Positions 17,274 through 60,359 of a stretch of DNA of 64,000 nucleotides are shown piece after piece. Every line of letters starts with the position of its first letter. Positions within the stretch are counted from its first letter, which is position 1. Below the pieces are notes generated by a model, which was not told the origin of the DNA, did not search any database, and saw only the letters and a program-made list of their open reading frames with translations. Origin of the DNA: Candidatus Omnitrophota bacterium (lineage in GTDB: Bacteria > Omnitrophota > Gorgyraeia > Zapsychrales > Zapsychraceae); assembly GCA_003528115.1 (NCBI GenBank), contig DOGZ01000012.1, positions 2,095 through 66,094 on the forward strand, read 5' to 3'. The translations under genes and the position numbers were made by a program.

Positions 17274-17289
17274 CCTCGTGTTCCATTAC

Positions 17290-17562
17290 TTTTGCGAAAG
17301 TCCGTAGTCCTGTGTCAACTCAATGGTAGATTGTTTGACACAGCACAACACTGCGCCTTTTCTGAAAAATATTTATTGAAAGCTAATTTGACGGCGCAGT
17401 GGAAATCATTTCATCGACACGAATTTATATACGTTTTCTACCTTTTAATGCGGATTTCCTTTTACTGACTTCCGCAAAAGCAATGAATCACTATGGTAGT
17501 CAGCATCTCGACCTCCGTCCGCTGGATGGTTTAATTCTATTCCTTGTGCGGAGGTCAATAGG
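17290..17562 (+). repeat. Structured intergenic repeat, copy 1 (carries about 100 nt extra relative to copy 2)
   Basis: It shares several segments with 25398..25592: ttttgcgaaagtcc, a hairpin, acaacactgcgccttttctgaaaa, aatttgacggcgcagt, and the core ctgacttccgcaaaagcaatgaa-cactatggtagtcag-atctcgacctccgtccgctggatggtttaattctatt..ttgtgcggaggtcaata. Confidence 0.8.
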
Positions 17563-17916
17563 CGCCCGGAGGGAAGCGGTTTTCTTCTTTCGGTCCATCA
17601 AAGAAACCCCGACGAGCGCATAGCTGGCGGTTGCCTTCCTTTCCACCCGAATCACTTTGACGCGGCCTTTGAAGATATCCAGGACGCCGGACATCACCAC
17701 GCGGATTTCCAGGACATCCCCTTTTTGGTATTCCTGATCCGTGTAAAATGATAACCCGCCGATACTCATATCCTGGGTCGTTGATAAAAACGAATCCCGT
17801 TGCAGATCCTTGCGCTTGCTTTCCTTAAGACTGTATTCAATACTCAAGACCCGCCTCGCCCGGACCCATTGACGGCGTTCACCGGCCGCTTGTTTAACCA
17901 CTGCTTGTTTAACCAT
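17500..17916 (-). CDS. PilZ-domain protein (c-di-GMP binding)
   Basis: RARRV...DMSIGGLSF matches the PilZ RxxxR / DxSxGG motifs. The start is assigned to the internal Met, MVKQAVVKQ, to avoid overlap with ald. The last about 19 codons, IDLRTRNRIKPSSGRRSRC, are encoded by the repeat element. Confidence 0.6.
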   Translation of the reverse strand: MVKQAVVKQAAGERRQWVRARRVLSIEYSLKESKRKDLQRDSFLSTTQDMSIGGLSFYTDQEYQKGDVLEIRVVMSGVLDIFKGRVKVIRVERKATASYALVGVSLMDRKKKTASLRAPIDLRTRNRIKPSSGRRSRC

Positions 17917-20910: not shown

Positions 20911-21582
20911 TCACAATTTTTTGTGAGTCTTCCAGAATAAATCAAGATTGTCAATTTCTTTAATCTCATGTCCATCGGGTGCCATTAACACAACTGACCA
21001 TTTAATAACACTCGCCCCTTTAGGTAATTTTCGTATCCCAACTACAGGATGACCATAATATTCATCTTTGGGGTATCCGCCGACAACATCAAGCTGGTGC
21101 GCATTGGATAATCTTTTTATATTACTGCCATCAAAATTTGCCCGATACAAAATAGCGTCAACTGCACAGTGTTGACTTAGAAAAAATATATAATTCCCAT
21201 CTGGAGAAAAATTCAAACTATCAAAAGAACCAAGATAGTATGACATATTGGGATGGTCCGCGTAATTACTCTTTATTATTCGATGTTCATTACTACCATC
21301 CACATTCACAGCCCAGATTTCTTCACAATCTGAAGGCATCCAGCCCGCATCTGAGGTGCCAGGACATGGCTTAATCTCTCGAACGAAAATAATTTTCTCA
21401 CGATCAGGCGACAGTTTTGCCCCGTAATCTTTCCCTTTGAACGTCAACTGAGACTCTTTATTATTTACATCACGAAAATAAATATTCTGATCTTTTTCAT
21501 AAACTTCTTGAGCGCATGCAGAAATAGCCAAAAGAATCCCTATTCCAATACTGCACATAAGAATCGCTATTTTTCTTCTCAT
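20911..21582 (-). CDS. Exported lipoprotein, probable beta-propeller (TolB-like DGS repeats)
   Basis: Signal peptide with a lipobox-like LAISAC. Repeated DGSN/DGNY blade-like motifs follow. Confidence 0.45.
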   Translation of the reverse strand: MRRKIAILMCSIGIGILLAISACAQEVYEKDQNIYFRDVNNKESQLTFKGKDYGAKLSPDREKIIFVREIKPCPGTSDAGWMPSDCEEIWAVNVDGSNEHRIIKSNYADHPNMSYYLGSFDSLNFSPDGNYIFFLSQHCAVDAILYRANFDGSNIKRLSNAHQLDVVGGYPKDEYYGHPVVGIRKLPKGASVIKWSVVLMAPDGHEIKEIDNLDLFWKTHKKL

Positions 21583-21775: not shown

Positions 21776-22819
21776 TAAAACGTAGTGCTTGGTCGGATCA
21801 GTGGCGCTCTTGGCCACGATTTTAATGACCTTTTTCTCGACCAATTCTTCTAAATCCCTCTGAGCCGTACGCCGGATACAAGATGCGACAGACTGATACT
21901 CATTGACGGAGAGCGTGCTTTTAATAATAAGGTGCTTAACCGCTTTCTCCTGACGCTTATTCAAACCGATCTTCTTAATCTTTTGAAACTGGCTATCCTG
22001 TTTAATCAACTGTTCGCCTTTAGCCTGAATCTCGGTCATCTGCGAACGCAGGCCGTCAACGAAGTATTCAATCCATGTGGTCATGTCCATGTTATTCTTG
22101 CGGACGGTCTGGATGGCCTGATAATAGCTCGGACGGTCTTTGTCGTAATACTCCGAAATAGTAAAAAGGCGTTTAAAATCATAGCCGGTCTTGTAGAGGA
22201 TGAGCGTTGAAAGAAGCCGGGCCGTCCTGCCGTTGCCGTCGATGAATGGATGAATATGCACAAATTGAAATTGAGCGATACCAGCCACAAGGATAGGCGA
22301 CACATCCTCAGCCTTACTTACCCACTCCGTAAACTCCCGCATAAGATGCGGAACATCCAAAGGCCCGGGCGGAGTATAAACAACCTCACGTGTGCGGGAA
22401 TTGACGACATAGTTTTGTATCTTGCGGTAATTGCCCGGGTCTGCGTTTTCGCCACGGACGCCTTTAACGAGAATCTTGTGAAGCTCCCGGACAATGCCTT
22501 CCGAAACCGGATCGTCTTTGCCGAGATACTTTGAAATAAAATCCATTGCCTTCTTGTAATTCAAAAGCTCCCGCTCATCATCACGATTTACGCCCTTGAC
22601 CTTTCCACCTTCCAAGATGCTCTTGGCCTGCTCAAGGCTTAGGGCTGTGCCTTCAATATGCGTGGAATGGTGCGATTCAAGGATAAGCGCCTTTTTCTGC
22701 ATGTCGGCGATCCAGTCGTCCTTGAGCTTAACCGCATCCAGAAAGCCCCGCACCCGCTCGATCTCAACGAGCGCCTTATTGATCTTTGGTGTGATATTAA
22801 ATTTTGGGGCAAATGCCAT
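21770..22819 (-). CDS. fic: Fic-family protein (AMPylation / phosphocholination fold) with a C-terminal winged-helix domain
   Basis: HPFIDGNGRTARLL is the canonical Fic motif HPFx[DE]GNGR. The ATG one codon into the TTG-initiated ORF is preceded by an AGAGAGG ribosome-binding site. Confidence 0.85.
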   Translation of the reverse strand: MAFAPKFNITPKINKALVEIERVRGFLDAVKLKDDWIADMQKKALILESHHSTHIEGTALSLEQAKSILEGGKVKGVNRDDERELLNYKKAMDFISKYLGKDDPVSEGIVRELHKILVKGVRGENADPGNYRKIQNYVVNSRTREVVYTPPGPLDVPHLMREFTEWVSKAEDVSPILVAGIAQFQFVHIHPFIDGNGRTARLLSTLILYKTGYDFKRLFTISEYYDKDRPSYYQAIQTVRKNNMDMTTWIEYFVDGLRSQMTEIQAKGEQLIKQDSQFQKIKKIGLNKRQEKAVKHLIIKSTLSVNEYQSVASCIRRTAQRDLEELVEKKVIKIVAKSATDPTKHYVLL

Positions 22820-25295: not shown

Positions 25296-25311
25296 CCAGG
25301 GCCGAACCTTT

Positions 25312-25372
25312 ATTGACCTCCGCGCGAGTAATGGAATTGGACCATCTTGCGGACGGAGATCGAGATTCCCAT
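25312..25372 (-). repeat. Structured repeat, copy 3 (core only, inverted)
   Basis: The minus-strand sequence is atctcgatctccgtccgcaagatggtccaattccattactcgcgcggaggtcaataaagg. It matches the core of copies 1 and 2. The stem gatctccg/cggaggtc is kept through a C-to-T change that gives a G·U pair. Confidence 0.7.
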
Positions 25373-25397
25373 GCTTTGGTAATAAAATGTTTGCGTG

Positions 25398-25592
25398 TCC
25401 CATTATTTTTACGGAAGTGCTACCGTGTCCACTGAATAGTCGGACACGGTACAACACTGCGCCTTTTCTGAAAATATCTACTGACTTCCGCAAAAGCAAT
25501 GAAACACTATGGTAGTCAGTATCTCGACCTCCGTCCGCTTGGTGGTTCAATTCTATTATTTGTGCGGAGGTCAATAATAGCAATGAATTTGA
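25398..25592 (+). repeat. Structured intergenic repeat, copy 2 (compact form)
   Basis: Colinear with copy 1. Internal inverted segments are ttttacggaagt/acttccgcaaaa, actgcgcc/ggcgcagt, ctgact/agtcag and gacctccg/cggaggtc. Confidence 0.8.
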
Positions 25593-25617
25593 CGGCGCAG
25601 TAAGTTAAGACTTGGCA

Positions 25618-28406: not shown

Positions 28407-28506
28407 GATAAGTTTCGAACTTTGAGTTGGGGCCGACGACCACAGGGTTCCATGACTGTAGCGGAAGTCAGTATATTATGAACGCGTCTTCTTTTCAAAC
28501 ATTATG

Positions 28507-30828: not shown

Positions 30829-33800
30829 TTAATGATTTGTGTTGATTAATTCCAAAGACCCCTCTATCTCCTGATTTAATTCATCCATGTTCTTGGAGCG
30901 ATCAGATATTTTCTGTTCAAGAAGCTTGTTTTTCTCCTGCCCGGCCTGAATCTGTTTCTTATAATCTTCTGTTGCCTCCTCGAGTTTACTCGTCAAGGCG
31001 TTAAGCCTCTTAATTTCATTCTCTAAAACGAATTGACTCTCTTTGATTCTTTGATCCAGAGTTTGTCGCGTTTCCTGATTCAAATTTTCCAGTTTGGCGA
31101 TTTTTTCCTGAAGAGGAATTTTTGCCGCCTCTACTTTATCCGACATGCTCAATTGCGCCCTCTTAAGCTCATCGGTCAGCGACTTCTTTTCTCCTTCTAA
31201 CTTCTCTAACCGCTGATTAAGATCGGCGCGTTCCTTATTGAGATTCTCCATCAATTGATTTCTTTCTTTTAATAATCGCTCCATGTTATTCACGCGTTCC
31301 TGCAAAACAACGAAGTCATTAGCCAGATTTATCTTAACTTGATCTGTTATTAGTAATTTATGTTGAAGATCCTTCTCGGATTTCTCAATATGGCTAATCA
31401 GTGAATCTTTGCTGTTGATCATTTCCTGCATCTGACCAACTTTTTCTTCCGCGCTCTTCAGAGAAGCCTCCAGGGGCATCTTGGCCTTAGCGACCCTCAA
31501 CCCAACGTTGGATTCCAGATCGGCCTTTTGGGTTTTCAAATCTTGAAGCTCCATTTCGATATTTTGCTTCCCTTGTGTTAAAACCTCTATCTCTTGGGCA
31601 AGTTTACCTTTCTCGCCGGCTAAACCGGCTGATTGAACGTCTTTCTGTTTAACGAGTTCTGAAGTCTCATGCAACTGTTGTTCCAATACCGTGATCTTTT
31701 CCTGCAAAGAGACTTTGACCATTTCAACTTTATTCTGCCAAACAACTTTGATACTCTTCAATTCATCAGATAATTCTGCAATACGATCATTTAAAGAAGC
31801 CCTTTCCTTTTGTGTCATGAGCAATTCATTCTTTAATCCGGTTTTCTCATCTTCCAACTGCTTAAACAATTGTTCTTTTTGATTTAAGACATTAACACGG
31901 CTCTGAACATTCTGCTCTAATTTCAACATCGCCTCTATCAGTGGCTGTTTTGCCTCGGCGATCTGAGCCGCGACAGAGCCTTTGAGGCTGCGCCAATTTC
32001 CTTGCAATATCTCGGCATTCTTTAACAAATCGAAATTTTTTGCCTGAAGATAACTGATATCTCTCTTTAAAGTGTCATTAACACCTAAAATTTCTTTGAG
32101 CTTGTTTTCGCTTTCTAAAACCAATCCTTGAATACTCTGTTTTTCTTCCTCTAATTGGGTGACACTTTGCCGCAGAGGTTCCTGAACCTCTTTTAATTCA
32201 AGCAGCCTTTGGTCCTGAAGTTCCTTCATTTGATTTTCTAAGCCGGATATCTTCTGATTTAACGGTTGTCGCGTCTCTTCAACCTTCTGATTCATCAGGG
32301 CTTCGGTGTTCTTGAGTTTGTCCGTCAATGAAACGATTGTTTTCTCAAAAGCGCTCTTCTCTGATAAAACCGCGTTATAATTTTTGCTAAGGATGTCCTT
32401 GTCCCCTTTCAGAGTTTGAATAAGAGCTTCTTGATCTTGCGCTAACTGCCGACTTTTTTGAAGTTCCCCCGCGCTCATCTGAAGTGTTTTTTCTAAAAGC
32501 TTTTGAGCTTCTGTAATTTTCTGAGTTATTGACGCGCGCAGGTTTTCCAACGCCTCTTCTTTCTCTTTCAATTGATCTTCCACGGTAACTTTTTCCCCCT
32601 TCAAGGCAACAGACACCTTGATTAAGGCCTCTCGCTCTTTCATGAGATCTTCCGCGTAAACAATTTTTTCTTTTAAGAGGCCTTCAGAGGCTCTTAATTT
32701 TTCTTCGAGAGATTTTATCACGTCTTGAAGGGGAGCCTTGGCTTCTGAAATCTTCGACGGAATTTCTGACTCGACGGCCTTTGAGCGCTCATCCAAAGCC
32801 CTAATATTACTTTGTAAAACGTCTTTTTCTTGATTAAGCGCAACGATCTGTTGGGTCAGAGTCTCTTTGTCTTTAAAAACGCCCGCCATGATCTTTTCAT
32901 TCTCACGGATAACATTTTCCTGGGTTTTGAGAGTGGCATTAAGATTTTGTATTTGATCCTTCAAAGGAGCTTGCGCCTTGGCAATCTCATCAGGAATAGA
33001 ATCCTCAACTTGCTTTGCCTTGGCTTTCCAATCTTCAAAACTTTTTGAAAGACCGGAACTGTCTTGCTGAATTGCCGCATATTGCTTTGTCAAATCCTCA
33101 TACTGTCCCTGGGCATCTCGTAACTGGTCGGCTTGATTTTTAAGAAGGGCATCTTTTTCCGCCAAAACTGTTTTCAGGGAGGCGTTCTCATTCTCCAATG
33201 AGGATTGGGCTGCCGCGATCTTAGTTGGAACGGATTTTTGGAGTTCATCCAATTGTGCCGTCCGACGCGTAATTTCTTGCTGCAAATCTTTGTTCTGATT
33301 CATGGCCTTTTCTAAATCGCCTTTTAAGGCCACATGCTTGCGGCCTAATTCTCCGACAGATTTCTCTTTTGATTTTATCGTCCCCTGGACATTGCTTAAA
33401 TTTTCCCTAAGGGTCTTGAGCTCATTCTGCAAAGGATTTTTCGCCGCCTCTATCTGTTGAGGGATATTCGATTCTGTTTGAAGCAAGGCATTCTTTAACG
33501 TTATTTTGTCATTCTCACTTTTTTTCAATTCAAGACTCAATAATTCTTTGGCTTGAATAAGTTCATTGATGGCTGTCTGTTTTGCCTGAACAAGATTTTC
33601 CGTATCTAATAACCGCTTTTCCAGAAATCGGACACTTTTCTCTAACGGCGCTTTTTTCTCGGCAATATGAACTTGGATCGACGCCTGGGTTTCCTTAAGT
33701 TTGTTCACGGAATCCGAAAGTTCAAGACTCAAATCCTCGCGTTCCTTTTGGATTTTCTCCAAATCACCGGACAATAACGCCTTGGCTTGAGACAATTCCA

Positions 33801-36800
33801 CATTCTCGGACTCCTTATTTTTTAAAGCCGCCTCTAAATTATCGCGCTGCGCTTCCAATTGAGTTATCTTGTTTTGAAGCGTCGTCTTGTTTTGATCCAT
33901 TTGTTGAGAAGCCGAGATCTCCTGCTGACGCAACGTTTCTCTAACCAATTTCAGTTCTTGCGTAAGATCGGCATTCCGGCTTGTTCTGTCGTTGAGATCC
34001 TGGCTCAATTGGACAAGGCGCTTCTGAAAATCATTGATTTGAGATTCTTTTTGGGCAATCGATTTTCCTGTCTCAGATAATCGCGCGTTTAAATCTGCGA
34101 TCTCCTTTCTCAGCGGCGATTGAATATCTTCCACCTGTTTGGCAAACGCGTCCTTTGTCTGACTCAATTGTGTCTGAATCGCCTCAAATTTACCGGCCAA
34201 AGCCCCTTGTTCCTCGTTTAAGCTCTTCAAGGCGTTATCCGCCGTCTTCTTTTCATTGGTCACCTTGGTTAATTGGCCCTGTCTGATGAGAAGATCTTCT
34301 TCAAGGGCATTAACCTTCTCCTTTAACATCTTGATGCTCTCTTCTAAAGGTTTCTTTTCTTCAAGAATGCGCTCTTGAAAAGAATTTTTCCTTTCCACGA
34401 CTTCTTCCTGCAATAAATTCTTTTCATTGAATAACTTCGTCTGCTCTTCCTGAAGGGCCTTCATATCCTTATCCAGTTTTCTCATCGCGTGATCTTTTTC
34501 AACCAGGAGTTGCGTGGACTCATTAAATTTAGCTTCTAACGATTGCAATTGTTTCTTCAGCGTGTTTTCAGCGTCGGCAACTTTTTGAGGCAATAACTCC
34601 TCCGCAATTTTTATTTTTTGCTTTAACCCGGTCATCTCCGTTTCCAGGCCGGCCTTTTGATTTTGTAAATTAACTAAGGACGCATTAAGGGTGCCCTGTT
34701 GGCTGTTAAGATTATTGATAAAGGCCTCCCTCTCATGCATCAGACCTTCCGTCTCATTTAATTTTTCGACCAAAGCGGAATTTTCTTTCTCCAAAGGCAG
34801 TCTTACGGCATTAATCTTATTCTTGACAGAGGCCTCTAATTCTTGCAAGTGACCTTCTAAATCCTTAATCTTATTTTCCAAAGGCGCTTTAACCTGAAGC
34901 AATTTTTCCTGCACAGCCGATTCAGAGGCCTGAATTTTACTCTTATAAATCTCGAGTTCAGCCGCCAAGGATTCTTTCTCCTGTCCGTTTTGGCTGAGTT
35001 CCCGTGCAATATCATCTTTTTCTCCGGAAAGCCGCTTGAATTGAACATCCTTTTCTTTGATACTACTTTCCAGTAATTGCAAATTCTTTTCTAACTCAAC
35101 GACCTTCTGCGCCAGTTGGGTCCTTGCCTTTTCGACCATGCCTGGAATTTCTCCTTGAGTTTCTTTCAATTTCAGGGTTGCCTGATCTAAGGCCAGACTC
35201 AGCCGATTCTTTACCTCCTCACTTTGACTAAGCTGTTGCGCCAGGCTTTCCTTCGTCGTCGATAACTGTTTTAAACTTGTCTCTTTTTCCTTAATCCCGT
35301 TCCCCAGCTCTTCAAGCTGTTTCTTTAATCCCGCGATCTCTTCGGCCAGCGGGCCCTTCGCCTTCTCGATCATCTCGGGTACAGACCCTTCAGTCTCTTT
35401 TAACTTCGCGGTTAATTGATCGAGTTCAACACTCAATCGTTGCTTTTCTTCTTCACTTTGCCCAAGCGTTTTGACGATCCCAGCCTTCTCTTGCGTCAAT
35501 TGATTTAAACTCGTCTCTTTCTCCTTTATCCCGTTCCCCAGCTCTTCAAGCTGTTTCTTTAATCCCGCGATCTCTTCGGCCAACGGGCCCTTCGCCTTCT
35601 CGATCATCCCAGGCACCGACCCCTGCGTCTCTTTTAACTTTGCGGTTAATTGATCGAGTTGCGCGCTCAGACGTTGCTTTTCTTCTTCGCTTTGCCCAAG
35701 CGTTTTGACGATCTCGGCCTTCTCTTGCGTCAATTGATTTAAACTCGTCTCTTTCTCCTTAATCCCGTTCCCCAGCTCTTCAAGCTGTTTCTTTAATCCC
35801 GCGAGCTCTTCAACCAACGGGCCCTTTGCCTTCTCGATCATCCCAGGCACCGACCCCTGCGTCTCTTTTAACTTTGCGGTTGATTGATCGAGTTCAACAC
35901 GCAACTGTTTTTTTTCTTCCTCGCTCCGGTTAAGTTGTTTTACTATGTCCGTTTTTTCTTTCTCTAATACGCTCAATATTCCTTCTTTTTGCTTTATGTC
36001 TTCCTGTAAACTTTTAAGAGTTGCCTGTAAAACATTGACCTGCTCGTTCCAAGAAGATTGAGACTTTGCCAATTCATCCGCTGATTCAGCCTCACTCATT
36101 TTCAACTTTTCTTTTAAAAAAATAATCTCTTGTTTCAAAGACTCTTGTTGGCTCCTCCCCTCATCGAGTTGAGTGAGGACATCAGCATGTTCTTTAGTCA
36201 ATTTGGCTAAATTAGCCGAATACAATTGAACGTCGTTTTCCGAAACCTTTAACTTTTCCGAAAAGGCCTGAATTTTATTTTCCAGAGGGAGCTTCGCATC
36301 AGCCGATTTCTTTACAAACTCTTCCTCTTTAATCCTCAACGTCTCGCGTAGCCCGGCAATTTCCTGGTTGAGGGAAAGCCGCTGTTTTTCGCTTTGTTGA
36401 AATTGAAGCCTAACTGAATCTCTTTCTTGGGCCAGTTGATCCAGGCTGGAATTTCTACCGGCAATTTCGACATCAGTCTTTTTTAATTTGTTTTCCAAAT
36501 CCCTTAATTTTTCCTCCAACCCCTTCGTGAGCTGATCGATTTTATCCGCGGCCCCTGACTTCTCAATGCCCAATTCCTTCTGTAAAGAGGCGATCTGTTC
36601 AATGAACAATTTCTTTTCATATTCCAAATTACCCAACTGTTTTCTTAAACCTGCTTTTTCTTGATTAATCTTTTCTAACTCCTCGCTCTTCTGTTTCAGC
36701 TCTGTTTGAACGGCCTCCACCTTTTCTTCCAAACTTTTAAGACGTTCCGTCAAAGGAGCTCTTTCCTTAGCCAGACGCTCCGGCATCTCGGCCTCAATGC

Positions 36801-39800
36801 CCTTTAACCGTTCCGCTAGACTGATGAGTTCTTTATTTATGACTTCCCGATTTTGTTCACTTTGTTTTAACTGACCCGCAAGGGACTGCTTATCTTGATT
36901 GAGGGTGTTTAACTCATCCGCCTTGGCCAAAACTGTTTGTCCGGCGGTATTTAATTGCTCACGCAGATGCTTAATTTCATCCTCCAGAGACGTCTTCGCC
37001 TGGGCTAGTTGGACAGTAAAATTTTCTTCATTAGTTTTCACTTTTGCTTTCGCGCCCGCCAACTCTTTAGAAATAGTTTCTTTCTCCTGCTTTGCTTGAT
37101 CGATTTGTTTAAGAATCCCCTCGTTTTGTTTTAATAATTTGTTTAACCCATCCTCTTTTTCCTGGACATGACCTTCGGCCGCTTTTAATTGTTCTTCCAT
37201 TGATTGAATCTTGGTCTCTAATAAGATCTTGGTGGTCGCCAGTTGATCCGACCATTGCTTTTCTTTTAGGCCGGCGTCATTCTTTAGACTGTCCATTTCA
37301 GCGCGGAGCGTTTTCTTTTCCTCTTCGCGTTGAGCCAATTGAAAGCTGATATCATTCTTTTCCTTATTCAAATTGTCTAAAACGGTCTTCTGGTCTTTAA
37401 CCGCGGAGTCTGTTGCCGCCATTTTTTTTTCCAATACAACTATTTGTTCCTTCAGGGTCGCCTTCACCTTTGAAACCTTGTCAAAGCCCTCTGATTCCAT
37501 CGTCCTCAATTTCTCTTTTAGAACCGAAACCTCTTGCTTCAAGAATTCTTTTTCTTTACTCGATTGCGTAAGTTTTTCTGCCAAGAAAATCTTCTCTTGC
37601 TCCATCTGCCATGTGGCCGACTTCATTTTCTCAATATCTTTGTCTTTTAGAACCAATTGATCATTCAATTGCTTGATGCTGGCTTCTAAAGGCGATTGAA
37701 CTTCCTGGATCTTTTGAGAAAATGTCTTTTCTGACTCATCGGCTTGCTTTTTTAAAAGGTCGAATTCTTTGCTTAACGTCTCTTGCTGAGCCTTTAAATC
37801 ATTTAATTCAACTTCAATAAAACCCTTTTCGCTGCTCAACTTTATGGCCAAATCATTTTTCTGTTTGATCTCAGTCTCTTTTTGCTGAAGGCCGGCTTGC
37901 AGATCGCCTATCTTATGTTCCATGGAAGCCTGAAGCGTTTTCATATCTTCCTTGTACGTCTTCTGCGCCTCATCGAATTGAACTCTTAAAACACCGATCT
38001 CTTTTTCTAAAGGAGCTCTGGCTTTGTCGATCCTTTCGGCCGCTTCCCTTTCGGTTGCCTGAAGTTGTTCAACCAGAGAAACAATGCGTTTTTCCAAATC
38101 GGATTTTTCAGACTGCGCATTTTTGAGCCGCTTATCGGTTTCCTCTTTCTTGACGGTAACATCTTTGATCGCGGCAGCTCTTTCATTAACCACACGCTCT
38201 TTCTCAAGAAGCTGACTTTCCAATAACTTTATTTTAGTTTCCAAAGGCGCCCTGCCGCCTTGAACTTTTTCATTAACACCCTTTTCGGCAGCGAGGATCT
38301 TATTTTGTAACACCTCTATCTGAACCTGGAATGGTTTTCCCGCATCTACAATTTCTTGAGATACCCGGGACTCATTTTTAGATAGTTCTTCTTTTGTAAC
38401 GGCAACTTGCAGCTCCAACGCTTCTTTATCTTTGACAATTTTATTTAAATCCCCTCTTAGCATTTCTTGCTCATTCTGGAGTTGATCAATAAGAAAATCC
38501 TTTTCTTTGATCTGTGTCGCCGTTGCCTGAACTTCTGTCCGCAGATCTTCCACCTTCTTCAATAACGGGGCCTTCTGCAACTCGACCTCGGCCTCATATT
38601 TCTTTTTGGCTTCTTGAATCGTTTGTTCTAACGTGAGAATTTTATTCTCCAGCGGTGACTTGGCCGCGGCTATTTTCTGAGTCAATGAATCTTCAACGTT
38701 TTTCAATTTCTGGTTTAATTGGGATAAATCATCGTTCAATTGCCCCTGCTTCCGAGTACTGGCCAAAAGATCATGATCCAGCTTGGTTTTTTCATGAGCC
38801 AAAGACACGATTTGATTTTCCTTGTCCTGGATAATGTCTTCCATGTCCCTCAACTTCTTCTTTAAATCATCCATCTCACCTTTTAATGCCGACACCTTCA
38901 AAACAACATTCTGCTGATAGGAGTTCTCCGCGGACGACAATTTCTCTTCAAGTGTTTTTATTTTTTCCTTCAAAGGGGCTTGAACCTCAACGATTTTCTT
39001 TTCATGCAGGGATTCCGCTTCTTTAAGCTTGTTTTTAAGGCCTTCCAACTGTTCGGCCAGTTGTTGGCTTTCCTTTTTAGAAAGCGAGAGCTCTCCCGAC
39101 AAAGAATCTTTTTCGCGTTTCAAATCCGTAGCGGCTGACTTTTGGGCCTGAACAACCTCCTGCATACTTTTAATTTTTTCTTCAAGGTCATGAACGCCCC
39201 GCTTATAATCCGCATTCTTTTCCTCAAGTTTTACTCGCGTCACTTCATCGCTTTTCCGTAATTTATCTTCCAAGTCTTTGATTTTTACCTCAAGTGGCGC
39301 CTTACTTTCTTTCACCAATTCATCTAGGGATTGCTTAGTCCCCTGGACTTTTTCCTTAATAGAGAGAAGCTCGCCTTCCAACTGTTCTTTTTTAGACAAA
39401 GCCTCGGCCAAATCCCGATGAACAGTTTGAAACTTTAAACTCAACTTTCTAAACTCATTTTCCTTCTCAATAATGAGGTCTTCGGAAAACTGCAACTTTT
39501 TCTCCAGGGAAAATATCTCATTCTTCAGAGGGATTTTCGCTTCTTCCATTTTATGAAAAAGTTCTGTTTGAGAAGCCTTGACTCTTTCATCCACACGGAC
39601 TTCCATTTGATCTAATTCTTTTTTCAATGATTCAATCTTTTGCTCTAAAGGAACTCTGGCCTCATGTAATTGAAATTGGAGACTTAATTCATTATCTTTG
39701 AGCCTGTCCCGAAATATCTTTAAATCATTCTGTAAAGAAATCTTTCCCTGCCGAATCGTCATCACTTGGTTGATGAGAGATTTCTTCTGAAGGGTCAATT

Positions 39801-40176
39801 CCTTAATCTTGGCCTCGTTTTCAAAGGAATACACATCCGTATGCTGCAGTTTCCACTGAAGAGACATGATCTCTTTTTCAAGAGACTCCTTTTTCTTAAT
39901 CATCTTATTAACCTCTTGGCGTAAATAATCCTTCTCGCTGATGAGATTCTCAATTTCAATCTCTTTGCTCTTCAGGATGCCTCCAAGATCTTCAAGAGAA
40001 TCTTCCGTTGAGGCCACTTGGGCGATAAGAATATCCTGCGGTTCCTGCCGTCTTCCATCGCGGAATTGCCCGTTCCCAGTATCGACAGCCCCCCAACTCC
40101 TCCCTGGGGAGAACGGAAAAGATAATAAAAAAATAAAACCTAAACTGACATAAAATAAACGTTGACTATTTTTCAT
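30829..40176 (-). CDS. Giant (3115 aa) secreted coiled-coil repeat protein of unknown function
   Basis: Signal peptide MKNSQRLFYVSLGFIFLLSFPFSPGRSWGA. The remainder is Glu/Lys/Leu/Gln-rich heptad coiled coil, broken roughly every 75–110 aa by a motif such as AKAPLEvKIkdLEdKL. About 35 such modules are present. No enzymatic or anchoring motif was seen. Confidence 0.85.
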   Translation of the reverse strand: MKNSQRLFYVSLGFIFLLSFPFSPGRSWGAVDTGNGQFRDGRRQEPQDILIAQVASTEDSLEDLGGILKSKEIEIENLISEKDYLRQEVNKMIKKKESLEKEIMSLQWKLQHTDVYSFENEAKIKELTLQKKSLINQVMTIRQGKISLQNDLKIFRDRLKDNELSLQFQLHEARVPLEQKIESLKKELDQMEVRVDERVKASQTELFHKMEEAKIPLKNEIFSLEKKLQFSEDLIIEKENEFRKLSLKFQTVHRDLAEALSKKEQLEGELLSIKEKVQGTKQSLDELVKESKAPLEVKIKDLEDKLRKSDEVTRVKLEEKNADYKRGVHDLEEKIKSMQEVVQAQKSAATDLKREKDSLSGELSLSKKESQQLAEQLEGLKNKLKEAESLHEKKIVEVQAPLKEKIKTLEEKLSSAENSYQQNVVLKVSALKGEMDDLKKKLRDMEDIIQDKENQIVSLAHEKTKLDHDLLASTRKQGQLNDDLSQLNQKLKNVEDSLTQKIAAAKSPLENKILTLEQTIQEAKKKYEAEVELQKAPLLKKVEDLRTEVQATATQIKEKDFLIDQLQNEQEMLRGDLNKIVKDKEALELQVAVTKEELSKNESRVSQEIVDAGKPFQVQIEVLQNKILAAEKGVNEKVQGGRAPLETKIKLLESQLLEKERVVNERAAAIKDVTVKKEETDKRLKNAQSEKSDLEKRIVSLVEQLQATEREAAERIDKARAPLEKEIGVLRVQFDEAQKTYKEDMKTLQASMEHKIGDLQAGLQQKETEIKQKNDLAIKLSSEKGFIEVELNDLKAQQETLSKEFDLLKKQADESEKTFSQKIQEVQSPLEASIKQLNDQLVLKDKDIEKMKSATWQMEQEKIFLAEKLTQSSKEKEFLKQEVSVLKEKLRTMESEGFDKVSKVKATLKEQIVVLEKKMAATDSAVKDQKTVLDNLNKEKNDISFQLAQREEEKKTLRAEMDSLKNDAGLKEKQWSDQLATTKILLETKIQSMEEQLKAAEGHVQEKEDGLNKLLKQNEGILKQIDQAKQEKETISKELAGAKAKVKTNEENFTVQLAQAKTSLEDEIKHLREQLNTAGQTVLAKADELNTLNQDKQSLAGQLKQSEQNREVINKELISLAERLKGIEAEMPERLAKERAPLTERLKSLEEKVEAVQTELKQKSEELEKINQEKAGLRKQLGNLEYEKKLFIEQIASLQKELGIEKSGAADKIDQLTKGLEEKLRDLENKLKKTDVEIAGRNSSLDQLAQERDSVRLQFQQSEKQRLSLNQEIAGLRETLRIKEEEFVKKSADAKLPLENKIQAFSEKLKVSENDVQLYSANLAKLTKEHADVLTQLDEGRSQQESLKQEIIFLKEKLKMSEAESADELAKSQSSWNEQVNVLQATLKSLQEDIKQKEGILSVLEKEKTDIVKQLNRSEEEKKQLRVELDQSTAKLKETQGSVPGMIEKAKGPLVEELAGLKKQLEELGNGIKEKETSLNQLTQEKAEIVKTLGQSEEEKQRLSAQLDQLTAKLKETQGSVPGMIEKAKGPLAEEIAGLKKQLEELGNGIKEKETSLNQLTQEKAGIVKTLGQSEEEKQRLSVELDQLTAKLKETEGSVPEMIEKAKGPLAEEIAGLKKQLEELGNGIKEKETSLKQLSTTKESLAQQLSQSEEVKNRLSLALDQATLKLKETQGEIPGMVEKARTQLAQKVVELEKNLQLLESSIKEKDVQFKRLSGEKDDIARELSQNGQEKESLAAELEIYKSKIQASESAVQEKLLQVKAPLENKIKDLEGHLQELEASVKNKINAVRLPLEKENSALVEKLNETEGLMHEREAFINNLNSQQGTLNASLVNLQNQKAGLETEMTGLKQKIKIAEELLPQKVADAENTLKKQLQSLEAKFNESTQLLVEKDHAMRKLDKDMKALQEEQTKLFNEKNLLQEEVVERKNSFQERILEEKKPLEESIKMLKEKVNALEEDLLIRQGQLTKVTNEKKTADNALKSLNEEQGALAGKFEAIQTQLSQTKDAFAKQVEDIQSPLRKEIADLNARLSETGKSIAQKESQINDFQKRLVQLSQDLNDRTSRNADLTQELKLVRETLRQQEISASQQMDQNKTTLQNKITQLEAQRDNLEAALKNKESENVELSQAKALLSGDLEKIQKEREDLSLELSDSVNKLKETQASIQVHIAEKKAPLEKSVRFLEKRLLDTENLVQAKQTAINELIQAKELLSLELKKSENDKITLKNALLQTESNIPQQIEAAKNPLQNELKTLRENLSNVQGTIKSKEKSVGELGRKHVALKGDLEKAMNQNKDLQQEITRRTAQLDELQKSVPTKIAAAQSSLENENASLKTVLAEKDALLKNQADQLRDAQGQYEDLTKQYAAIQQDSSGLSKSFEDWKAKAKQVEDSIPDEIAKAQAPLKDQIQNLNATLKTQENVIRENEKIMAGVFKDKETLTQQIVALNQEKDVLQSNIRALDERSKAVESEIPSKISEAKAPLQDVIKSLEEKLRASEGLLKEKIVYAEDLMKEREALIKVSVALKGEKVTVEDQLKEKEEALENLRASITQKITEAQKLLEKTLQMSAGELQKSRQLAQDQEALIQTLKGDKDILSKNYNAVLSEKSAFEKTIVSLTDKLKNTEALMNQKVEETRQPLNQKISGLENQMKELQDQRLLELKEVQEPLRQSVTQLEEEKQSIQGLVLESENKLKEILGVNDTLKRDISYLQAKNFDLLKNAEILQGNWRSLKGSVAAQIAEAKQPLIEAMLKLEQNVQSRVNVLNQKEQLFKQLEDEKTGLKNELLMTQKERASLNDRIAELSDELKSIKVVWQNKVEMVKVSLQEKITVLEQQLHETSELVKQKDVQSAGLAGEKGKLAQEIEVLTQGKQNIEMELQDLKTQKADLESNVGLRVAKAKMPLEASLKSAEEKVGQMQEMINSKDSLISHIEKSEKDLQHKLLITDQVKINLANDFVVLQERVNNMERLLKERNQLMENLNKERADLNQRLEKLEGEKKSLTDELKRAQLSMSDKVEAAKIPLQEKIAKLENLNQETRQTLDQRIKESQFVLENEIKRLNALTSKLEEATEDYKKQIQAGQEKNKLLEQKISDRSKNMDELNQEIEGSLELINTNH
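35283..35985. repeat. Three near-identical 234-bp tandem repeats inside the giant gene (78-aa modules)
   Basis: The units begin at about 35293, 35527 and 35761. Only a handful of substitutions separate them. Each encodes GSVPGMIEKAKGPLxEExAGLKKQLEELGNGIKEKETSLNQLTQEKAxIVKTLGQSEEEKQRLSxxLDQLTAKLKETQ. Confidence 0.85.
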
Positions 40177-55093: not shown

Positions 55094-55282
55094 GAACCGT
55101 ATAAAAATAAAAACAAAATGGGGTTAGTCAGATAAAGTGGATTAACTATACCATTGTCGCCTTAATGTTTCAAGAAATGTCTAAAGGGAGGATTTAGTGG
55201 GTGTCTGCGAGGGCAAAAAAGAATGATTTGGAGGGAAAAGAAAACAAATTTTTACAACGAGCTGAAATATAATTTAAAATTC

Positions 55283-56573
55283 GGCACTGGTATAGATTTA
55301 GTGCTGTAAATTAATAGGAGGCGTTAAACTTTCCGACGCTGTGTTGCCTTAAAATCGTGTATAATCCTGAAAGAGCAGGACACTTATCGGTTTTTGGCAA
55401 CTTTGCGGAAAGGAATCCTCCCGTTATGTCTTCAAATTTTTTTGCCCGAGATGTCGGGGTTGCTCTTTCACAAAAGCTGGTTTTAAAGAACTCCGGGTGT
55501 TCACGCTACATGGCTGGCATCACCAACGGTACCAGCTGTATCGTTGCGAAGCTTGTGATCACCGTTTCCATTGCGCGGAGGTGATCGGCATGTACACGGT
55601 CAAAGTGATTGAATATGTGACCTTCATGTACTTGCGAAGTATGTCGTTCAATCAGGTCAACGCGATCCTGCGAGCGTTCTACGAGCGCAATGTGTTCACC
55701 AAGTCGCAACTCATTGAACATATCGAACAACTTACGGATCGAATCCCGGAACATCAGGCCATCAGCCGCTGGCTCAAGCCAAAGCGCAGCGGTTATTACG
55801 CGCTGGATGGGACATGGCTCAAATATCGTGGCGAAGACATCGTGCTTCTGATCATGTTCGATGTCGAAACACTGGACACGGTAGCGTACCATGTGGCTGA
55901 TGACGAAACCGAAGAATCATACACGGCGCTTATCCAGATGGCCAGGCCGGAGATCTCCGTCGGAATTAAAGGCCTTTTTGGCGACGGCGACCTTGGCCTC
56001 ATGGCCGCGATAGAAAAACTTTGCCCGGGCGTTCCGTTCCAGTTGTGCGTCTTTCACAAGTACGCGCGTGTCGGCCAGTTGATTCCGTTCAGGTACTCCA
56101 AGAACGCGCTGGATCGGGAAATCAAAGAGCGGGTTGAAAAAGTCCTGTTTGCTGAAAGCAAAGACGCGGCCACAAGCGCGTTGCATGAACTTGAGTTGTT
56201 CGCCAAAGAAAATCAGGGTTACGGGAAGCTTAACAAGGCGATTGAAGTCTTGCATTACAACTTCGAACTTCTCCTGACCCATTTTGATCATCCCGAGATG
56301 AGCCCGTATAACAATGTGCTTGAGGGATTCAACGCGGTCATCAAACGTCGCACCTGGCTTATGAAAGGGTTTAAGAAAGACATTAACATCGACCGTTGGA
56401 TCAAACTCCTGCTTCTGGACTGGCGGTTCCATGTGCTTAAGGAGTCGGCCTTCGATAGCCGCAGAGGAAAAATGCCCCTTGAGCTGGCCGAAGTCAAACT
56501 TCCAGAGATTTACAACTGGCTAACTTTTGTGAGAAAGAACTATCGGAAAAACCACTAATTCTATACCAGTGCC
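55283..56573 (+). mobile_element. Complete IS1-like insertion sequence (1291 bp) with terminal inverted repeats and an 8-bp target-site duplication
   Basis: The left inverted repeat is GGCACTGGTATAGATTTAGTG. The right inverted repeat, read as reverse complement, is GGCACTGGTATAGAATTAGTGG. The target-site duplication TAAAATTC is present at 55275–55282 and 56574–56581. Confidence 0.8.
55497..56558 (+). CDS. DDE transposase with an N-terminal zinc ribbon (IS1 InsA-like CPRC...HQRYxCxxC)
   Basis: The in-frame extension upstream to 55371 reads ...FFCPRCRGCSFTKAGFKELRVFTLHGWHHQRYQLYRCEACDHRF. The DDE residues are placed at ALDGTW, FGDGDLG and NNVLEGFNAVIKRR. The only ATG upstream (55426, MSSNFF) is in another frame and joins through a T7 tract. 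Confidence 0.75.
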   Translation: MFTLHGWHHQRYQLYRCEACDHRFHCAEVIGMYTVKVIEYVTFMYLRSMSFNQVNAILRAFYERNVFTKSQLIEHIEQLTDRIPEHQAISRWLKPKRSGYYALDGTWLKYRGEDIVLLIMFDVETLDTVAYHVADDETEESYTALIQMARPEISVGIKGLFGDGDLGLMAAIEKLCPGVPFQLCVFHKYARVGQLIPFRYSKNALDREIKERVEKVLFAESKDAATSALHELELFAKENQGYGKLNKAIEVLHYNFELLLTHFDHPEMSPYNNVLEGFNAVIKRRTWLMKGFKKDINIDRWIKLLLLDWRFHVLKESAFDSRRGKMPLELAEVKLPEIYNWLTFVRKNYRKNH

Positions 56574-56587
56574 TAAAATTCTATTAT

Positions 56588-58952: not shown

Positions 58953-60359
58953 CTAATAAAGACAACTAGCACCGAACATGAGCGCGGTAGAATTCCACTT
59001 GATTTGATTCAATTGTGTGTCAATAACACTCCCATCACTGAAAAACGTTCTATCCAGCCCCTCCCAGGCCTGCCAATCCTGTAAATCTGCGTTAAAATTC
59101 AAATTCCAATGATCATTTAATTGATAGGCTGCCCCTAGATTCAAAACAAGGCCGCGACCATCGGCTATATGCTCAAAACTTTTCGGATGCTGGAAATCAT
59201 CTCTAAGGTTCCAATTGGCTGAACCATAATAATCCGCCATATGATATTCAAATCTGAACAGGGCGGAAATCTTCTTCCTCTTTCCAATTAATTCAAATCC
59301 GGTCCAAGGGCCTTCCCATTCAGCCCAATAGCTGGTATGCAATTGTGGCGGCAACGGACCAGACCCTCCAACCACCTGTCTTCCGTCAATCGCAATAAGA
59401 TTTAATTCATGCCGAGAGAAACCTCCCAAGGCTGTAAACCAAATATCATCTGACAACAGTTCTTTAGAGACAGAACCTAAAGAAAACTTATATCCGAGGC
59501 CATATGACCAATCTATGGCGCTCCCGTCATCGGCTCGACTAACGGATCTTGAAAATTCATCGGCATGATTGTCACTAAAATAATCCGAATCCTGAACCTC
59601 CCCATCATAGATGTCCGCATATGACATCATGCCATCAAGTACAAAACGCTGATCGACAGTGATTTCTCCTTTAGCTTTAAGTTGAGTCATTTTCAAATCT
59701 TTCCAAGTCAACTCAGACAAAACATTCGGATTGGCCCCATCCGTATCCCCAGCAATACTAAACTGAAAATCGTCTTGTCGATATCCCCCAAAAAGTTGCA
59801 AACTTGCCTCTATTAATTTTTGTCGATTGGAGTCGTCATTATTGGAATATTGCATTCCCACTGAATTAATAGACTTATCCCCCCCAACACTAGCAATACT
59901 CAAATGATTATTATCAGCTTCGTCACTAATGCTTTCGGATTTAACTGCGATATCAGAAGAAAATGGGGCGGAAACGAAATCTACTTTTTGTGGATGAGGA
60001 AATCGCTCAACAGCATCAAGGCTTTTTTTAATTAAATCACTTCTTTTTGCCTCATAATTCTTAAGAGACTCTCCTGAATAACAAAGATCCTGCCAAGATA
60101 AGCTATTCTTTCTATACGCTTTCTGTCCTAAACAATCTGCGGATTTTCGTGAAGATAAAATAAATTTATGATCATCAGCATCTTGAACTACGTTCTTTCG
60201 ATTATGCGATTCCATCTGCCGTGTATAGGTCAACCACTCCCTTCTGATCAAAATATTTCTTTCATTAGGACTAGGATTTTGTTTCGCATAAACCAATTTT
60301 GAGTCATGGGAAATGTAAAATGCCATTGTCAGGACCAGTAAATATTGATATTTTTTCAT
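58953..60359 (-). CDS. Putative outer-membrane beta-barrel protein
   Basis: Signal peptide. The C-terminal half shows amphipathic beta-strand alternation (WNLNFNADLQDW, LVLNLGAAYQL) and ends in an aromatic residue (...SCLY). Confidence 0.35.
   Translation of the reverse strand: MKKYQYLLVLTMAFYISHDSKLVYAKQNPSPNERNILIRREWLTYTRQMESHNRKNVVQDADDHKFILSSRKSADCLGQKAYRKNSLSWQDLCYSGESLKNYEAKRSDLIKKSLDAVERFPHPQKVDFVSAPFSSDIAVKSESISDEADNNHLSIASVGGDKSINSVGMQYSNNDDSNRQKLIEASLQLFGGYRQDDFQFSIAGDTDGANPNVLSELTWKDLKMTQLKAKGEITVDQRFVLDGMMSYADIYDGEVQDSDYFSDNHADEFSRSVSRADDGSAIDWSYGLGYKFSLGSVSKELLSDDIWFTALGGFSRHELNLIAIDGRQVVGGSGPLPPQLHTSYWAEWEGPWTGFELIGKRKKISALFRFEYHMADYYGSANWNLRDDFQHPKSFEHIADGRGLVLNLGAAYQLNDHWNLNFNADLQDWQAWEGLDRTFFSDGSVIDTQLNQIKWNSTALMFGASCLY

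What the first reader, a model, noticed from the sequence alone, without database searches (positions are those of the whole stretch)
17290..17562. Structured intergenic repeat family present three times in the window
Elements at 17290–17562, 25398–25592 and an inverted core at 25312–25372 share long identical stretches and multiple nested inverted segments. In the core hairpin gacctccg(N31)cggaggtc, copy 3 carries gatctccg, and the C-to-T change keeps pairing as a G·U. That is the signature of selection on RNA or DNA secondary structure rather than on coding. Copy 1 has about 100 nt of extra sequence, and the ggcgcagt arm sits on different sides of the core in copies 1 and 2. The layout looks modular, like REP/BIME elements, MITEs or a small-RNA family.
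Basis: seen in the sequence. Interest (0 to 1): 0.7.

Follow-up and report, generated by a model that had tools for sequence, protein, structure and literature searches.

The report
Nested miniature transposon-like repeats, Omnitrophota genome
The repeated, hairpin-rich intergenic sequences are real and are best read as small non-coding mobile-DNA relics (MITE-like elements inserted next to and into one another) in an uncultivated Omnitrophota bacterium, which is an ordinary kind of feature, not a new structured RNA.

Summary
The window is from Omnitrophica WOR_2 bacterium GWA2_45_18. It holds two 98-nt 'BC' units that are 93% identical (17463-17560 and 25479-25576), a solo inverted C hairpin (25311-25366), two copies of a second, roughly 98-nt two-hairpin element 'AP', two inverted 29-nt B-end fragments, and two decayed copies (28435-28473 and 60138-60235).

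At least six more BC copies lie at unrelated loci of the same genome, and two lie in short contigs of unknown origin. BC has sharp ends and 26-nt imperfect terminal inverted repeats (17-21 of 26 identical in all ten copies). TA flanks both ends: 10 of 10 on the left, 9 of 10 on the right. Its centre is variable, with inserts of 0, 21 or 82 nt, and it occurs in either orientation relative to genes. In copy 2, BC sits inside the loop of an AP hairpin at a TA, which explains the 'arm on different sides' layout.

On 11 copies the B and C hairpins show no covariation: 90.5% of positions are paired, against 90.6% in shuffles. Both strands fold equally well, and Rfam gives nothing. Only the older AP hairpins show 2-3 compensatory changes, from three copies.

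Verdict: a new, low-copy MITE-like family, possibly of Tc1/IS630 type with a TA target. No matching transposase was found.

The parts
17278..17306 (-). armL-1: an inverted 29-nt fragment of the B (left) end of a BC element, ending in TA and abutting AP-1
   Evidence: BLAST and nhmmer match to B positions 1-29 on the minus strand at about 87% identity. This fragment is the source of the long-range pairing with B seen in the fold of copy 1.
17305..17402 (+). AP-1: the second element type, about 98 nt. Hairpin A is 17310-17318 paired with 17335-17343. Hairpin P1 is cactgcgcc 17349-17357 paired with ggcgcagtg 17393-17401.
   Evidence: About 90% identical to a standalone copy at L008 2175-2267 (minus strand) and homologous to 25421-25478 plus 25577-25601. 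Fold z-score is -5.1.
17403..17462 (.). Unique spacer between AP-1 and BC-1. It is most of the 'extra about 100 nt' of copy 1.
   Evidence: No second copy in the window or in any locus.
17463..17560 (+). BC-1: a 98-nt unit with hairpin B at 17463-17505 and hairpin C at 17505-17560. Its ends are TACTGACTTCCGC...GCGGAGGTCAATA.
   Evidence: 120.7 bits. Terminal inverted repeat 19/26.
17500..17916 (-). PilZ-domain gene. Its last roughly 19 codons and its TGA stop lie inside BC-1, read on the reverse strand of hairpin C.
   Evidence: Pfam PilZ match and gene call. The tail PIDLRTRNRIKPSSGRRSRC is frame r2 of BC. Homologues carry different basic tails of similar length.
25311..25366 (-). C-3: a solo C hairpin with no B module, lying just upstream of or within the annotated 5' end of the NfeD gene.
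   Evidence: (63 bits). Public gene calls for NfeD start at 25403 or 25337 and read through it.
25395..25422 (-). armL-2: an inverted fragment of the B end abutting AP-2, about 76% identical to armL-1.
   Evidence: (weak hit at 25397-25418), and by eye against armL-1.
25421..25478 (+). AP-2, 5' part: hairpin A (taccgtgtcc 25421-25430 paired with ggacacggta 25442-25451), the P1 5' arm at 25455-25463, and the first half of the P1 loop.
   Evidence: Hairpin A carries compensatory changes relative to AP-1 and L008.
25479..25576 (+). BC-2: a 98-nt unit inserted at a TA in the loop of the AP-2 P1 hairpin.
   Evidence: 123.1 bits. With BC and one TA removed, the stretch from 'tat' to the 3' arm is 23 nt, the same as in AP-1 and the L008 AP.
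25577..25601 (+). AP-2, 3' part: the rest of the P1 loop and the P1 3' arm ggcgcagt at 25594-25601.
   Evidence: 16/16 identical to 17385-17400.
28435..28473 (-). Degenerate B-like copy, followed at 28425-28434 by the first bases of the D insert. It lies in the citrate synthase / epimerase intergenic region.
   Evidence: (I3 and I4, 76-79% complementarity), nhmmer E 1e-3, CM 16.9 bits, sequence.
60138..60235 (+). Old, degenerate full-length BC copy, antisense within the N-terminal part of a Pom-family outer-membrane protein ORF (58953-60359, minus strand).
   Evidence: CM 37.2 bits, E 2.6e-6, full model length. 57/98 ungapped identity; apart from the known element copies, no other position exceeds 47. 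Pfam Pom domain covers residues 191-463.

Best explanation
The region holds decaying and nested copies of small non-autonomous DNA transposons (MITE-like elements) of at least two types.

Type BC is 98 bp. It has 26-bp imperfect terminal inverted repeats (TAYTGACYTCCGCAMAAG.AAT..AA). Each end folds back on a short internal inverted copy of itself, which creates hairpins B and C. The centre is variable, as expected if BC arose by internal deletion of a longer parent element.

Inferred mechanism: a transposase supplied in trans binds the two ends, excises or copies the unit, and inserts it at a TA dinucleotide in AT-rich intergenic DNA, duplicating the TA. This is the Tc1/mariner/IS630 style.

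Type AP is about 98 bp with two hairpins. It is older and has similar TAYTG...CARTA ends.

The layout at the flagged coordinates follows from the order of insertions. An AP element lies next to a truncated inverted BC end, and this composite is present twice. A young BC later landed 60 nt downstream of one AP (copy 1) and inside the P1 loop of the other (copy 2). A solo C sits nearby.

The hairpins are by-products of the inverted repeats needed for transposition, not an RNA fold under selection. Side effects on the host are shown by sequence only. BC-1 supplies the last 19 codons and the stop codon of a PilZ gene, C-3 occupies the 5' end region of nfeD, and several database 'hypothetical proteins' are ORFs read through these elements.
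For: Dispersed copies with unrelated flanks. A metagenome scan anchored only on the 5' arm and loop of C returned five distinct loci. A search with translated element frames found three more ORFs that lie on elements. Cluster names show that L005-L014 and L021-L023 belong to the same organism as the window.

Sharp common boundaries. Every one of the ten BC/BDC copies starts with TACTGAC, and nine end with GTCAATA. Flanks share nothing beyond that.

Terminal inverted repeats. 17-21 of 26 bases are identical in all ten copies; the chance of at least 20/26 is about 2e-7. The reverse strand folds end to end through these repeats at -34.7 kcal/mol.

TA at both ends, plus a filled-versus-empty comparison. 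With BC and one TA removed, the stretch from 'tat' to the P1 3' arm in AP-2 is 23 nt, exactly as in the two AP copies without an insert.

Variable centre at one junction. The insert is 0 nt in most copies, 21 nt in L015b, and 82 nt ('D', with its own inverted ends) in L008, L011 and L013.

Fragments and decayed copies. These are the solo C, a solo B (L023 12658-12696), armL x2, 28435-28473 and 60138-60235.

Orientation relative to flanking genes is mixed, 4 sense and 6 antisense.

The element is not coding. The differences between copies 1 and 2 are mostly non-synonymous in the open frame.

No RNA-family match, and no covariation in B or C.

One assembly contig breaks inside hairpin C, as happens at repeats.

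The defining features of MITEs and the TA-flanked bacterial examples are taken from PMC3184786. The TA preference of Tc1/IS630 elements is taken from the abstracts of PMC2170065 and PMC6400869.
Against: No autonomous element or transposase with matching ends was found in about 150 kb of this genome. The only transposases seen are an IS256-family IS in the window, with unrelated ends, and an IS481-like ORF in L015.

No true orthologous empty site was obtained. The closest relative locus (L020, 92% nt identity in accA) has a diverged intergenic region and the contig ends 72 nt after the stop. The TA duplication therefore rests on one nested-insertion comparison. TA could simply be part of the element.

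The D insert shows TA on one side only. The solo C copy has AA, not TA, on its left.

Copy number appears low (about 10-20), and no movement has been observed.

Hairpins A and P1 show 2-3 compensatory double changes among three copies. Neutral decay of a transposon does not predict this.
Confidence: 0.66

Rival explanations
1. This is a REP/BIME- or REPIN-like system. Each 35-55-nt palindromic unit (A, P1, B, D1, D2, C) would be a hairpin recognised as single-stranded DNA by a domesticated Y1 (RAYT / IS200-like) transposase. Units would cluster into mosaics and be kept palindromic by that recognition.
For: The elements are strings of consecutive imperfect palindromes in variable combinations: B-C, B-D1-D2-C, A-P1, solo C and solo B. 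Compensatory changes keep hairpins A and P1 paired across diverged copies. Location is strictly intergenic or at gene ends. No DDE transposase with matching ends was found.
Against: B almost always travels with C, with conserved outer ends and a 26-nt inverted-repeat relation between the two ends. This points to a two-ended unit, not single hairpins. No conserved GTAG-type head is present, and no fixed target tetranucleotide lies 5' of the copies (flanks). The apparent copy number is tens, not hundreds. The loops are as conserved as the stems. No Y1 transposase was seen among the roughly 30 larger window ORFs scanned directly or the loci with precomputed Pfam. The rest of the genome was not searchable.
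Confidence: 0.14
2. This is a family of structured non-coding RNAs, either small RNAs or cis-acting mRNA elements, whose hairpins are under selection at the RNA level.
For: Predicted folds are much more stable than shuffles, with z from -4 to -5. The inner stem of C is rich in G.U pairs on the element strand, and its variation is by transitions that keep pairing. One C-to-T change gives G.U in copy 3. A and P1 show compensatory changes.
Against: Pairing and covariation in B and C are no better than in shuffled controls, and several substitutions break pairs. The reverse strand folds as well or better, with z -4.9 against -4.1. The two window copies adopt different global folds, because BC lies inside P1 in one and outside it in the other. 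Orientation relative to transcription is mixed. The consensus scans find no convincing promoter or terminator. Rfam gives no match. G.U pairs tolerate both possible transitions, so their conservative variation carries no information.
Confidence: 0.08
3. This is not a mobile or functional family at all. It would be local segmental duplication or gene conversion between a few intergenic regions, or an assembly artefact of a metagenome-assembled genome.
For: All secure copies come from one population genome, and copy number is low. Some segments are identical between copies 1 and 2 (24/24 and 16/16 nt) while neighbouring segments are about 76% identical, which suggests some gene conversion.
Against: At least nine loci on different long contigs have unrelated flanking genes and identical element boundaries. 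Independent assemblies from NCBI, ENA and Logan reproduce the window copies base for base.
Confidence: 0.03

Closest known systems
Correia elements (CREE) of Neisseria
   Same: About 100-155 bp, non-coding, about 26-bp terminal inverted repeats, TA at both ends, intergenic and often overlapping gene ends, size variants through internal differences, and no known cognate transposase. Sizes and class are from PMC3184786. The TA and 26-bp details are partly from my own knowledge and from reference titles in that review.
   Different: A different phylum, and as far as I recall the Correia ends there is no sequence resemblance (not aligned here). Copy number here is tens, not hundreds. No IHF site, promoter or RNase III processing has been shown here.
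IS630/Tc1/mariner-derived bacterial MITEs (for example Nezha in cyanobacteria, RUP in pneumococcus) and ERIC-type units with TA flanks
   Same: Short inverted-repeat elements flanked by TA, inserted at TA targets in intergenic DNA, and able to fold into a long hairpin (PMC3184786; TA preference of ISY100 from the abstracts of PMC2170065 and PMC6400869).
   Different: No IS630-family parent with matching ends was found, and the TA duplication is inferred from one nested site only. Each end of BC is additionally a small palindrome of its own.
BIMEs / REPINs (REP clusters mobilised by RAYTs) and pneumococcal BOX elements
   Same: A mosaic, modular arrangement of palindromic units in variable combinations in intergenic DNA. 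Some compensatory changes preserve stems (REPIN background: PMC3116915 and PMC3337134).
   Different: The units are longer, there is no GTAG head, and no RAYT was found. BC behaves as one two-ended unit with terminal inverted repeats. Copy number is low.

Membership tests
MITE (generic, as defined in PMC3184786) | Small size (under about 200-400 bp) and no transposase gene | tested here: met
   BC is 98 bp (94-179 bp with variants) and AP is about 98 bp. The open frames carry mostly non-synonymous differences between copies and have no family match.
MITE (generic) | Terminal inverted repeats | tested here: met
   17-21 of 26 terminal bases identical between the left end and the reverse complement of the right end in all ten copies; chance of at least 20/26 is about 2e-7.
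MITE (generic) | Target-site duplication flanking the element | tested here: inconclusive
   TA on the left in 10/10 copies and on the right in 9/10. One filled-versus-empty comparison (the AP P1 loop with and without BC) fits a TA duplication. No orthologous empty site was obtained.
MITE (generic) | Multiple dispersed copies with unrelated flanks in one genome | tested here: met
   Eight BC/BDC copies plus fragments on at least six contigs of one organism.
MITE (generic) | Parent insertion sequence or trans-acting transposase with matching ends | tested here: not met
   None was found in about 150 kb. The IS256-family IS at 55269-56587 has unrelated ends. The L015 ORFs between two BC copies look like membrane proteins with no family hit. 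The whole genome could not be scanned.
IS630/Tc1/mariner-derived MITE | TA target duplication plus end similarity to an IS630-family element | tested here: inconclusive
   The TA flanks are consistent with this. No IS630-family transposase was found in the DNA held. The IS481-like ORF in L015 hits the IS630 model only weakly, over its N-terminal DNA-binding part.
REP / REPIN-RAYT | Short (20-40 nt) palindromes with a conserved GTAG-like head, in inverted doublets, with a RAYT gene flanked by them | tested here: not met
   Units are 34-56 nt, no conserved GTAG head is present, and B and C are not inverted copies of one REP. No Y1 transposase was seen among the window ORFs scanned directly or the loci with precomputed Pfam. 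Presence of a RAYT elsewhere in the genome is not testable with these tools.
Any Rfam RNA family | Covariance-model match at the gathering score | tested here: not met
   0 matches for the whole window at gathering thresholds, and 0 at E<=1 for both regions.
Structured non-coding RNA (new family) | Covariation supporting one conserved architecture, and strand specificity | tested here: not met
   B and C: 90.5% paired against 90.6% in shuffles. AP: 2 double changes, reached by 41/500 shuffles, from three copies. The two window copies have different architectures. Both strands fold equally well. Orientation is mixed.
Integron attC sites | One orientation at the 3' ends of promoterless cassettes next to an integrase, with RYYYAAC/GTTRRRY core sites | tested here: not met
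   Both orientations occur, the neighbours are housekeeping genes (pntAB, fumarase, citrate synthase, nuo, accA), and no integrase was seen. The core-site motifs are not present at the ends (by eye).

The most novel reading that the evidence does not exclude
The hairpin modules (A, P1, B, D1, D2, C) could be units of a hairpin-recognising system not yet described in Omnitrophota. That could be a REPIN/RAYT-like single-strand transposition system, or a host-recruited family of RNA/DNA stem-loops that shape gene ends. Under this reading the compensatory changes in A and P1 reflect real selection for the stems. The elements would then be maintained, not merely decaying, and would repeatedly supply stop codons, C-terminal tails and 5' leaders to housekeeping genes.
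Probability: 0.12. Interest if true: 0.5.

Novelty: new member of a known kind. Interest (0 to 1): 0.25.

Why it matters
The practical value is modest. It documents a MITE-like repeat family in Omnitrophota, a phylum known almost only from metagenomes, and I found no paper that pairs Omnitrophica with such elements. It explains several database artefacts: 'hypothetical proteins' such as OGW96703.1/HBR14404.1 that are ORFs read through an element, over-extended NfeD starts, the PilZ tail, and a contig break. It also gives a sequence marker (TACTGACTTCCGCAAAAG...GCGGAGGTCAATA) for tracking this population and for spotting mis-binned contigs. It does not open a new mechanism.

Tried and rejected
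Rfam search of the whole window at gathering thresholds and of both regions at E<=1: nothing. tRNA and tmRNA scan: none.

GTDB species genomes were scanned twice. The C pattern gave 0 hits. The B pattern gave one chance hit inside a Marinomonas coding sequence. The family is therefore not seen outside this lineage at exact-pattern sensitivity. Two scans of viral contigs gave 0 hits.

Coding hypothesis. Frames f3 and r3 of BC are open, but the differences between copies are mostly non-synonymous, and the proteins hit are obvious read-through ORFs. Rejected.

Promoter or terminator reading. The consensus scans are not above shuffled expectation. The TTGACA in hairpin A is not conserved in copy 2 (GGACAC). 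Rejected.

Autonomous-element hypothesis for L015. Two inverted BC copies bracket two ORFs, but these look like membrane proteins with no Pfam, NCBIfam, PADLOC or PHROG hit. Not supported.

Empty-site search through accA homologues. Only one close relative was found (L020, 92% nt identity). Its contig ends 72 nt after the stop and its intergenic region is diverged. Uninformative.

PilZ homologues are at most 61% identical, so no close relative is available for the window loci.

I first took L013 and L014 to be a second genome carrying the element, which would have implied horizontal transfer. Cluster names showed they are the same organism, plus a probably mis-binned contig, so I dropped that idea.

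Extending the genome sample by about 25 kb (L022, L023) added only one diverged solo B copy.

Full report
**What is in the sequence.** 17463-17560 and 25479-25576 are 93% identical over 98 nt. 17345-17368 equals 25451-25474 (24/24) and 17385-17400 equals 25586-25601 (16/16). 25311-25366 is an inverted copy of the last 56 nt, at 84%. The hairpin gacctccg-N31-cggaggtc and the gatctccg variant are as stated.

I divide the region into modules:
- B: a 42-nt hairpin, TACTGAC...GTCAGTA.
- A: a 34-nt hairpin.
- P1: cactgcgcc...ggcgcagtg.
- 'armL': a 29-nt inverted copy of the B end, lying immediately 5' of A in both window copies (17278-17306 and 25395-25422).

Two further decayed copies lie at 28435-28473 (minus strand) and at 60138-60235. 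The second has 57/98 ungapped identity; apart from the known element copies, no other window position exceeds 47.

**Context.** The window is part of contig MHFX01000022.1 of the metagenome-assembled genome Omnitrophica WOR_2 bacterium GWA2_45_18. The neighbours are housekeeping genes. Copy 1 lies between the converging pntB and a PilZ gene. Copy 2 and the solo C lie between a leucyl aminopeptidase gene and nfeD, both on the minus strand. The PilZ reading frame runs 19 codons into the reverse strand of hairpin C and stops there. Homologues have other basic tails of similar length. Public gene calls for NfeD read through the solo C.

**More copies.** A scan of JGI metagenome contigs used a pattern that fixes only the 5' arm and part of the loop of C. 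It returned five distinct new loci. A protein search with the translated open frames of BC found three ORFs that are simply read-throughs of elements. Cluster names show that all the long contigs (L005-L014, L021-L023) are the same organism as the window. L015-L019 are short contigs of unknown origin with two more diverged copies.

At exact-pattern sensitivity the family is absent from 185,579 GTDB species genomes and from IMG/VR. About 150 kb of this genome holds:
- eight BC-type copies;
- one solo C;
- solo or partial B copies: two armL fragments, 28435-28473, and L023 12658-12696;
- one decayed full copy;
- three AP copies: two in the window and a standalone one at L008 2175-2267.

This suggests tens of copies per genome, not hundreds.

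**Anatomy of BC.**
- All ten BC-type copies begin with TACTGAC, and nine end with GTCAATA. Outside these ends the flanks are unrelated.
- The first 26 nt and the reverse complement of the last 26 nt are 17-21/26 identical in every copy. The chance of at least 20/26 is about 2e-7.
- On the reverse strand the minimum-energy fold pairs the two ends into one long foldback at -34.7 kcal/mol.
- Each end also pairs with a short internal inverted copy of itself, and this is what makes hairpins B and C.
- The B/C junction is variable. It carries no insert in most copies, a 21-nt GC hairpin in L015b, and an 82-nt two-hairpin insert 'D' in L008, L011 and L013.
- This pattern of conserved ends and a variable middle is what internal-deletion derivatives of a longer transposon look like.

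**Why copies 1 and 2 differ.** AP exists on its own in L008, between two genes, with P1 closing a simple 36-nt loop. Copy 1 has the same arrangement, with BC 60 nt further on. In copy 2, BC lies inside the P1 loop. Removing BC and one of its two TA dinucleotides leaves 23 nt from 'tat' to the 3' arm, the same as in the two AP copies without an insert. Removing both TAs leaves 21. This explains the 'arm on different sides' observation. It is also the one filled-versus-empty comparison I have, and it fits insertion at TA with duplication of the TA. In both window copies armL ends in TA exactly where AP begins (TAGT...), which again fits TA-targeted insertion next to an existing element.

**Is the structure selected?** I aligned 11 BC/C copies and counted pairs for the predicted B and C helices. 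90.5% of cells are paired, against 90.6% in shuffles. The covariation score is 0.061 against 0.069 in shuffles. Every departure in helix B is a broken pair, and in helix C three pairs are broken in some copies.

The G.U produced by the C-to-T change in copy 3 is therefore one transition among changes that break pairs about as often as they preserve them. The one-sided changes in the inner stem of C occur at G.U pairs, which tolerate both possible transitions, so they carry no information.

Both strands fold equally well, with z -4.1 and -4.9. The two window copies have different global folds. Orientation relative to neighbouring genes is 4 sense and 6 antisense. Rfam has no match. The consensus scans find no convincing promoter or terminator.

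The exception is the older AP element. Between copies, hairpin A changes U-A to C-G at one pair, and by eye A-U to C-G at a second pair that the alignment gaps. P1 changes C-G to U-A once and has two wobble changes. The counted measures are reached by 41 of 500 shuffles. With three sequences this is a hint of maintained palindromy, not proof. It is also what hairpin-recognising DNA systems or arm-to-arm template switching would produce.

**Interpretation.** The best-supported reading is a low-copy family of MITE-like non-autonomous transposons that have inserted beside and into each other.
- Shown: size, non-coding nature, terminal inverted repeats, dispersed copies with sharp ends, nesting, truncated and decayed copies, and foldback potential. 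These are the defining MITE features listed in PMC3184786.
- Inferred: the TA target duplication and therefore the Tc1/mariner/IS630-type mechanism, and mobilisation in trans.
- Not met: a parent element or transposase with matching ends. The window's only transposase belongs to an IS256-family IS at 55269-56587 with unrelated ends.

The lack of a known parent is also true of Correia elements (from my own knowledge). In size, 26-bp ends and TA flanks, Correia elements are the closest analogue, although I do not claim membership of that family.

The main rival is a REP/BIME/REPIN-like system that recognises single hairpins. It is favoured by the modular strings of palindromes and the AP compensatory changes. 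It is disfavoured by the two-ended behaviour of BC, the lack of a GTAG head or a fixed 5' target, and the low copy number.

**Verdict.** This is a new member of a known kind. Interest is low to moderate. Its main use is for annotation hygiene in Omnitrophota MAGs and as a starting point for asking what mobilises these elements.

Noticed in passing
window 55269-56587: An apparently complete IS256-family insertion sequence. It has 35-nt inverted ends (55269-55303 and 56553-56587, 83% complementary) bracketing a Transposase_mut ORF at 55497-56558. Its ends are unrelated to the BC/AP elements.
   Followed up: partly
window 30829-40176 (minus strand): A giant 3115-aa ORF with no Pfam match, containing 234-nt (78-aa) tandem repeats (for example 35264-35960, three copies at 82-90%) and strong AT skew.
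   Followed up: no
window 60138-60235, within ORF 58953-60359 (minus strand): A decayed BC copy (58% identity) lies antisense inside the N-terminal, non-domain part of a Pom-family outer-membrane protein, downstream of a plausible signal peptide. This may be an old element absorbed into a coding region.
   Followed up: partly
L013 10001-10258, L010/L022 10001-10297, L015 4054-4335: The database 'hypothetical proteins' P0028 (OGW96703.1, HBR14404.1), P0027 and P0026 are ORFs read straight through BC or B-D-C elements. They are annotation artefacts, not genes.
   Followed up: yes
L014 (MHAA01000129.1, GCA_001802805.1): A contig binned as Stygiobacter sp. GWC2_38_9 is identical across the accA-element-rlmN region to the Omnitrophica GWA2_45_18 / DD723 contig. 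This is probably a mis-binned or chimeric contig.
   Followed up: partly
window 21214-21277 and 21962-22031: A contig from another sample (L003) is identical to the window over 11.7 kb except for 27 substitutions clustered in these two roughly 65-nt patches. The patches lie inside a Tricorn_N-like ORF and a Fic-domain ORF, and may be localised recombination or hypervariable patches. The window also differs from its own public contigs by one base at 22421.
   Followed up: no
window 17534 (end of contig L004): A Logan assembly contig of the same strain stops inside hairpin C, as expected where an assembler meets a dispersed repeat.
   Followed up: yes
L015 2362-2480 and 4229-4326: In short contigs of unknown organism, two BC copies in inverted orientation bracket two ORFs with no family match (301 aa, membrane-like, and 207 aa). 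About 9 nt of matching flank lie beyond each outer end. An IS481-like transposase ORF (358-1452) and a PIN/DUF6364 toxin-antitoxin pair lie nearby. This could be a composite mobile unit, but it is unresolved.
   Followed up: partly
L023 12658-12696 (about 4.2 kb left of the window start): A solo, roughly 75%-identical B module with no C, lying between an acetyl-CoA synthetase gene and a CopG-like gene.
   Followed up: partly
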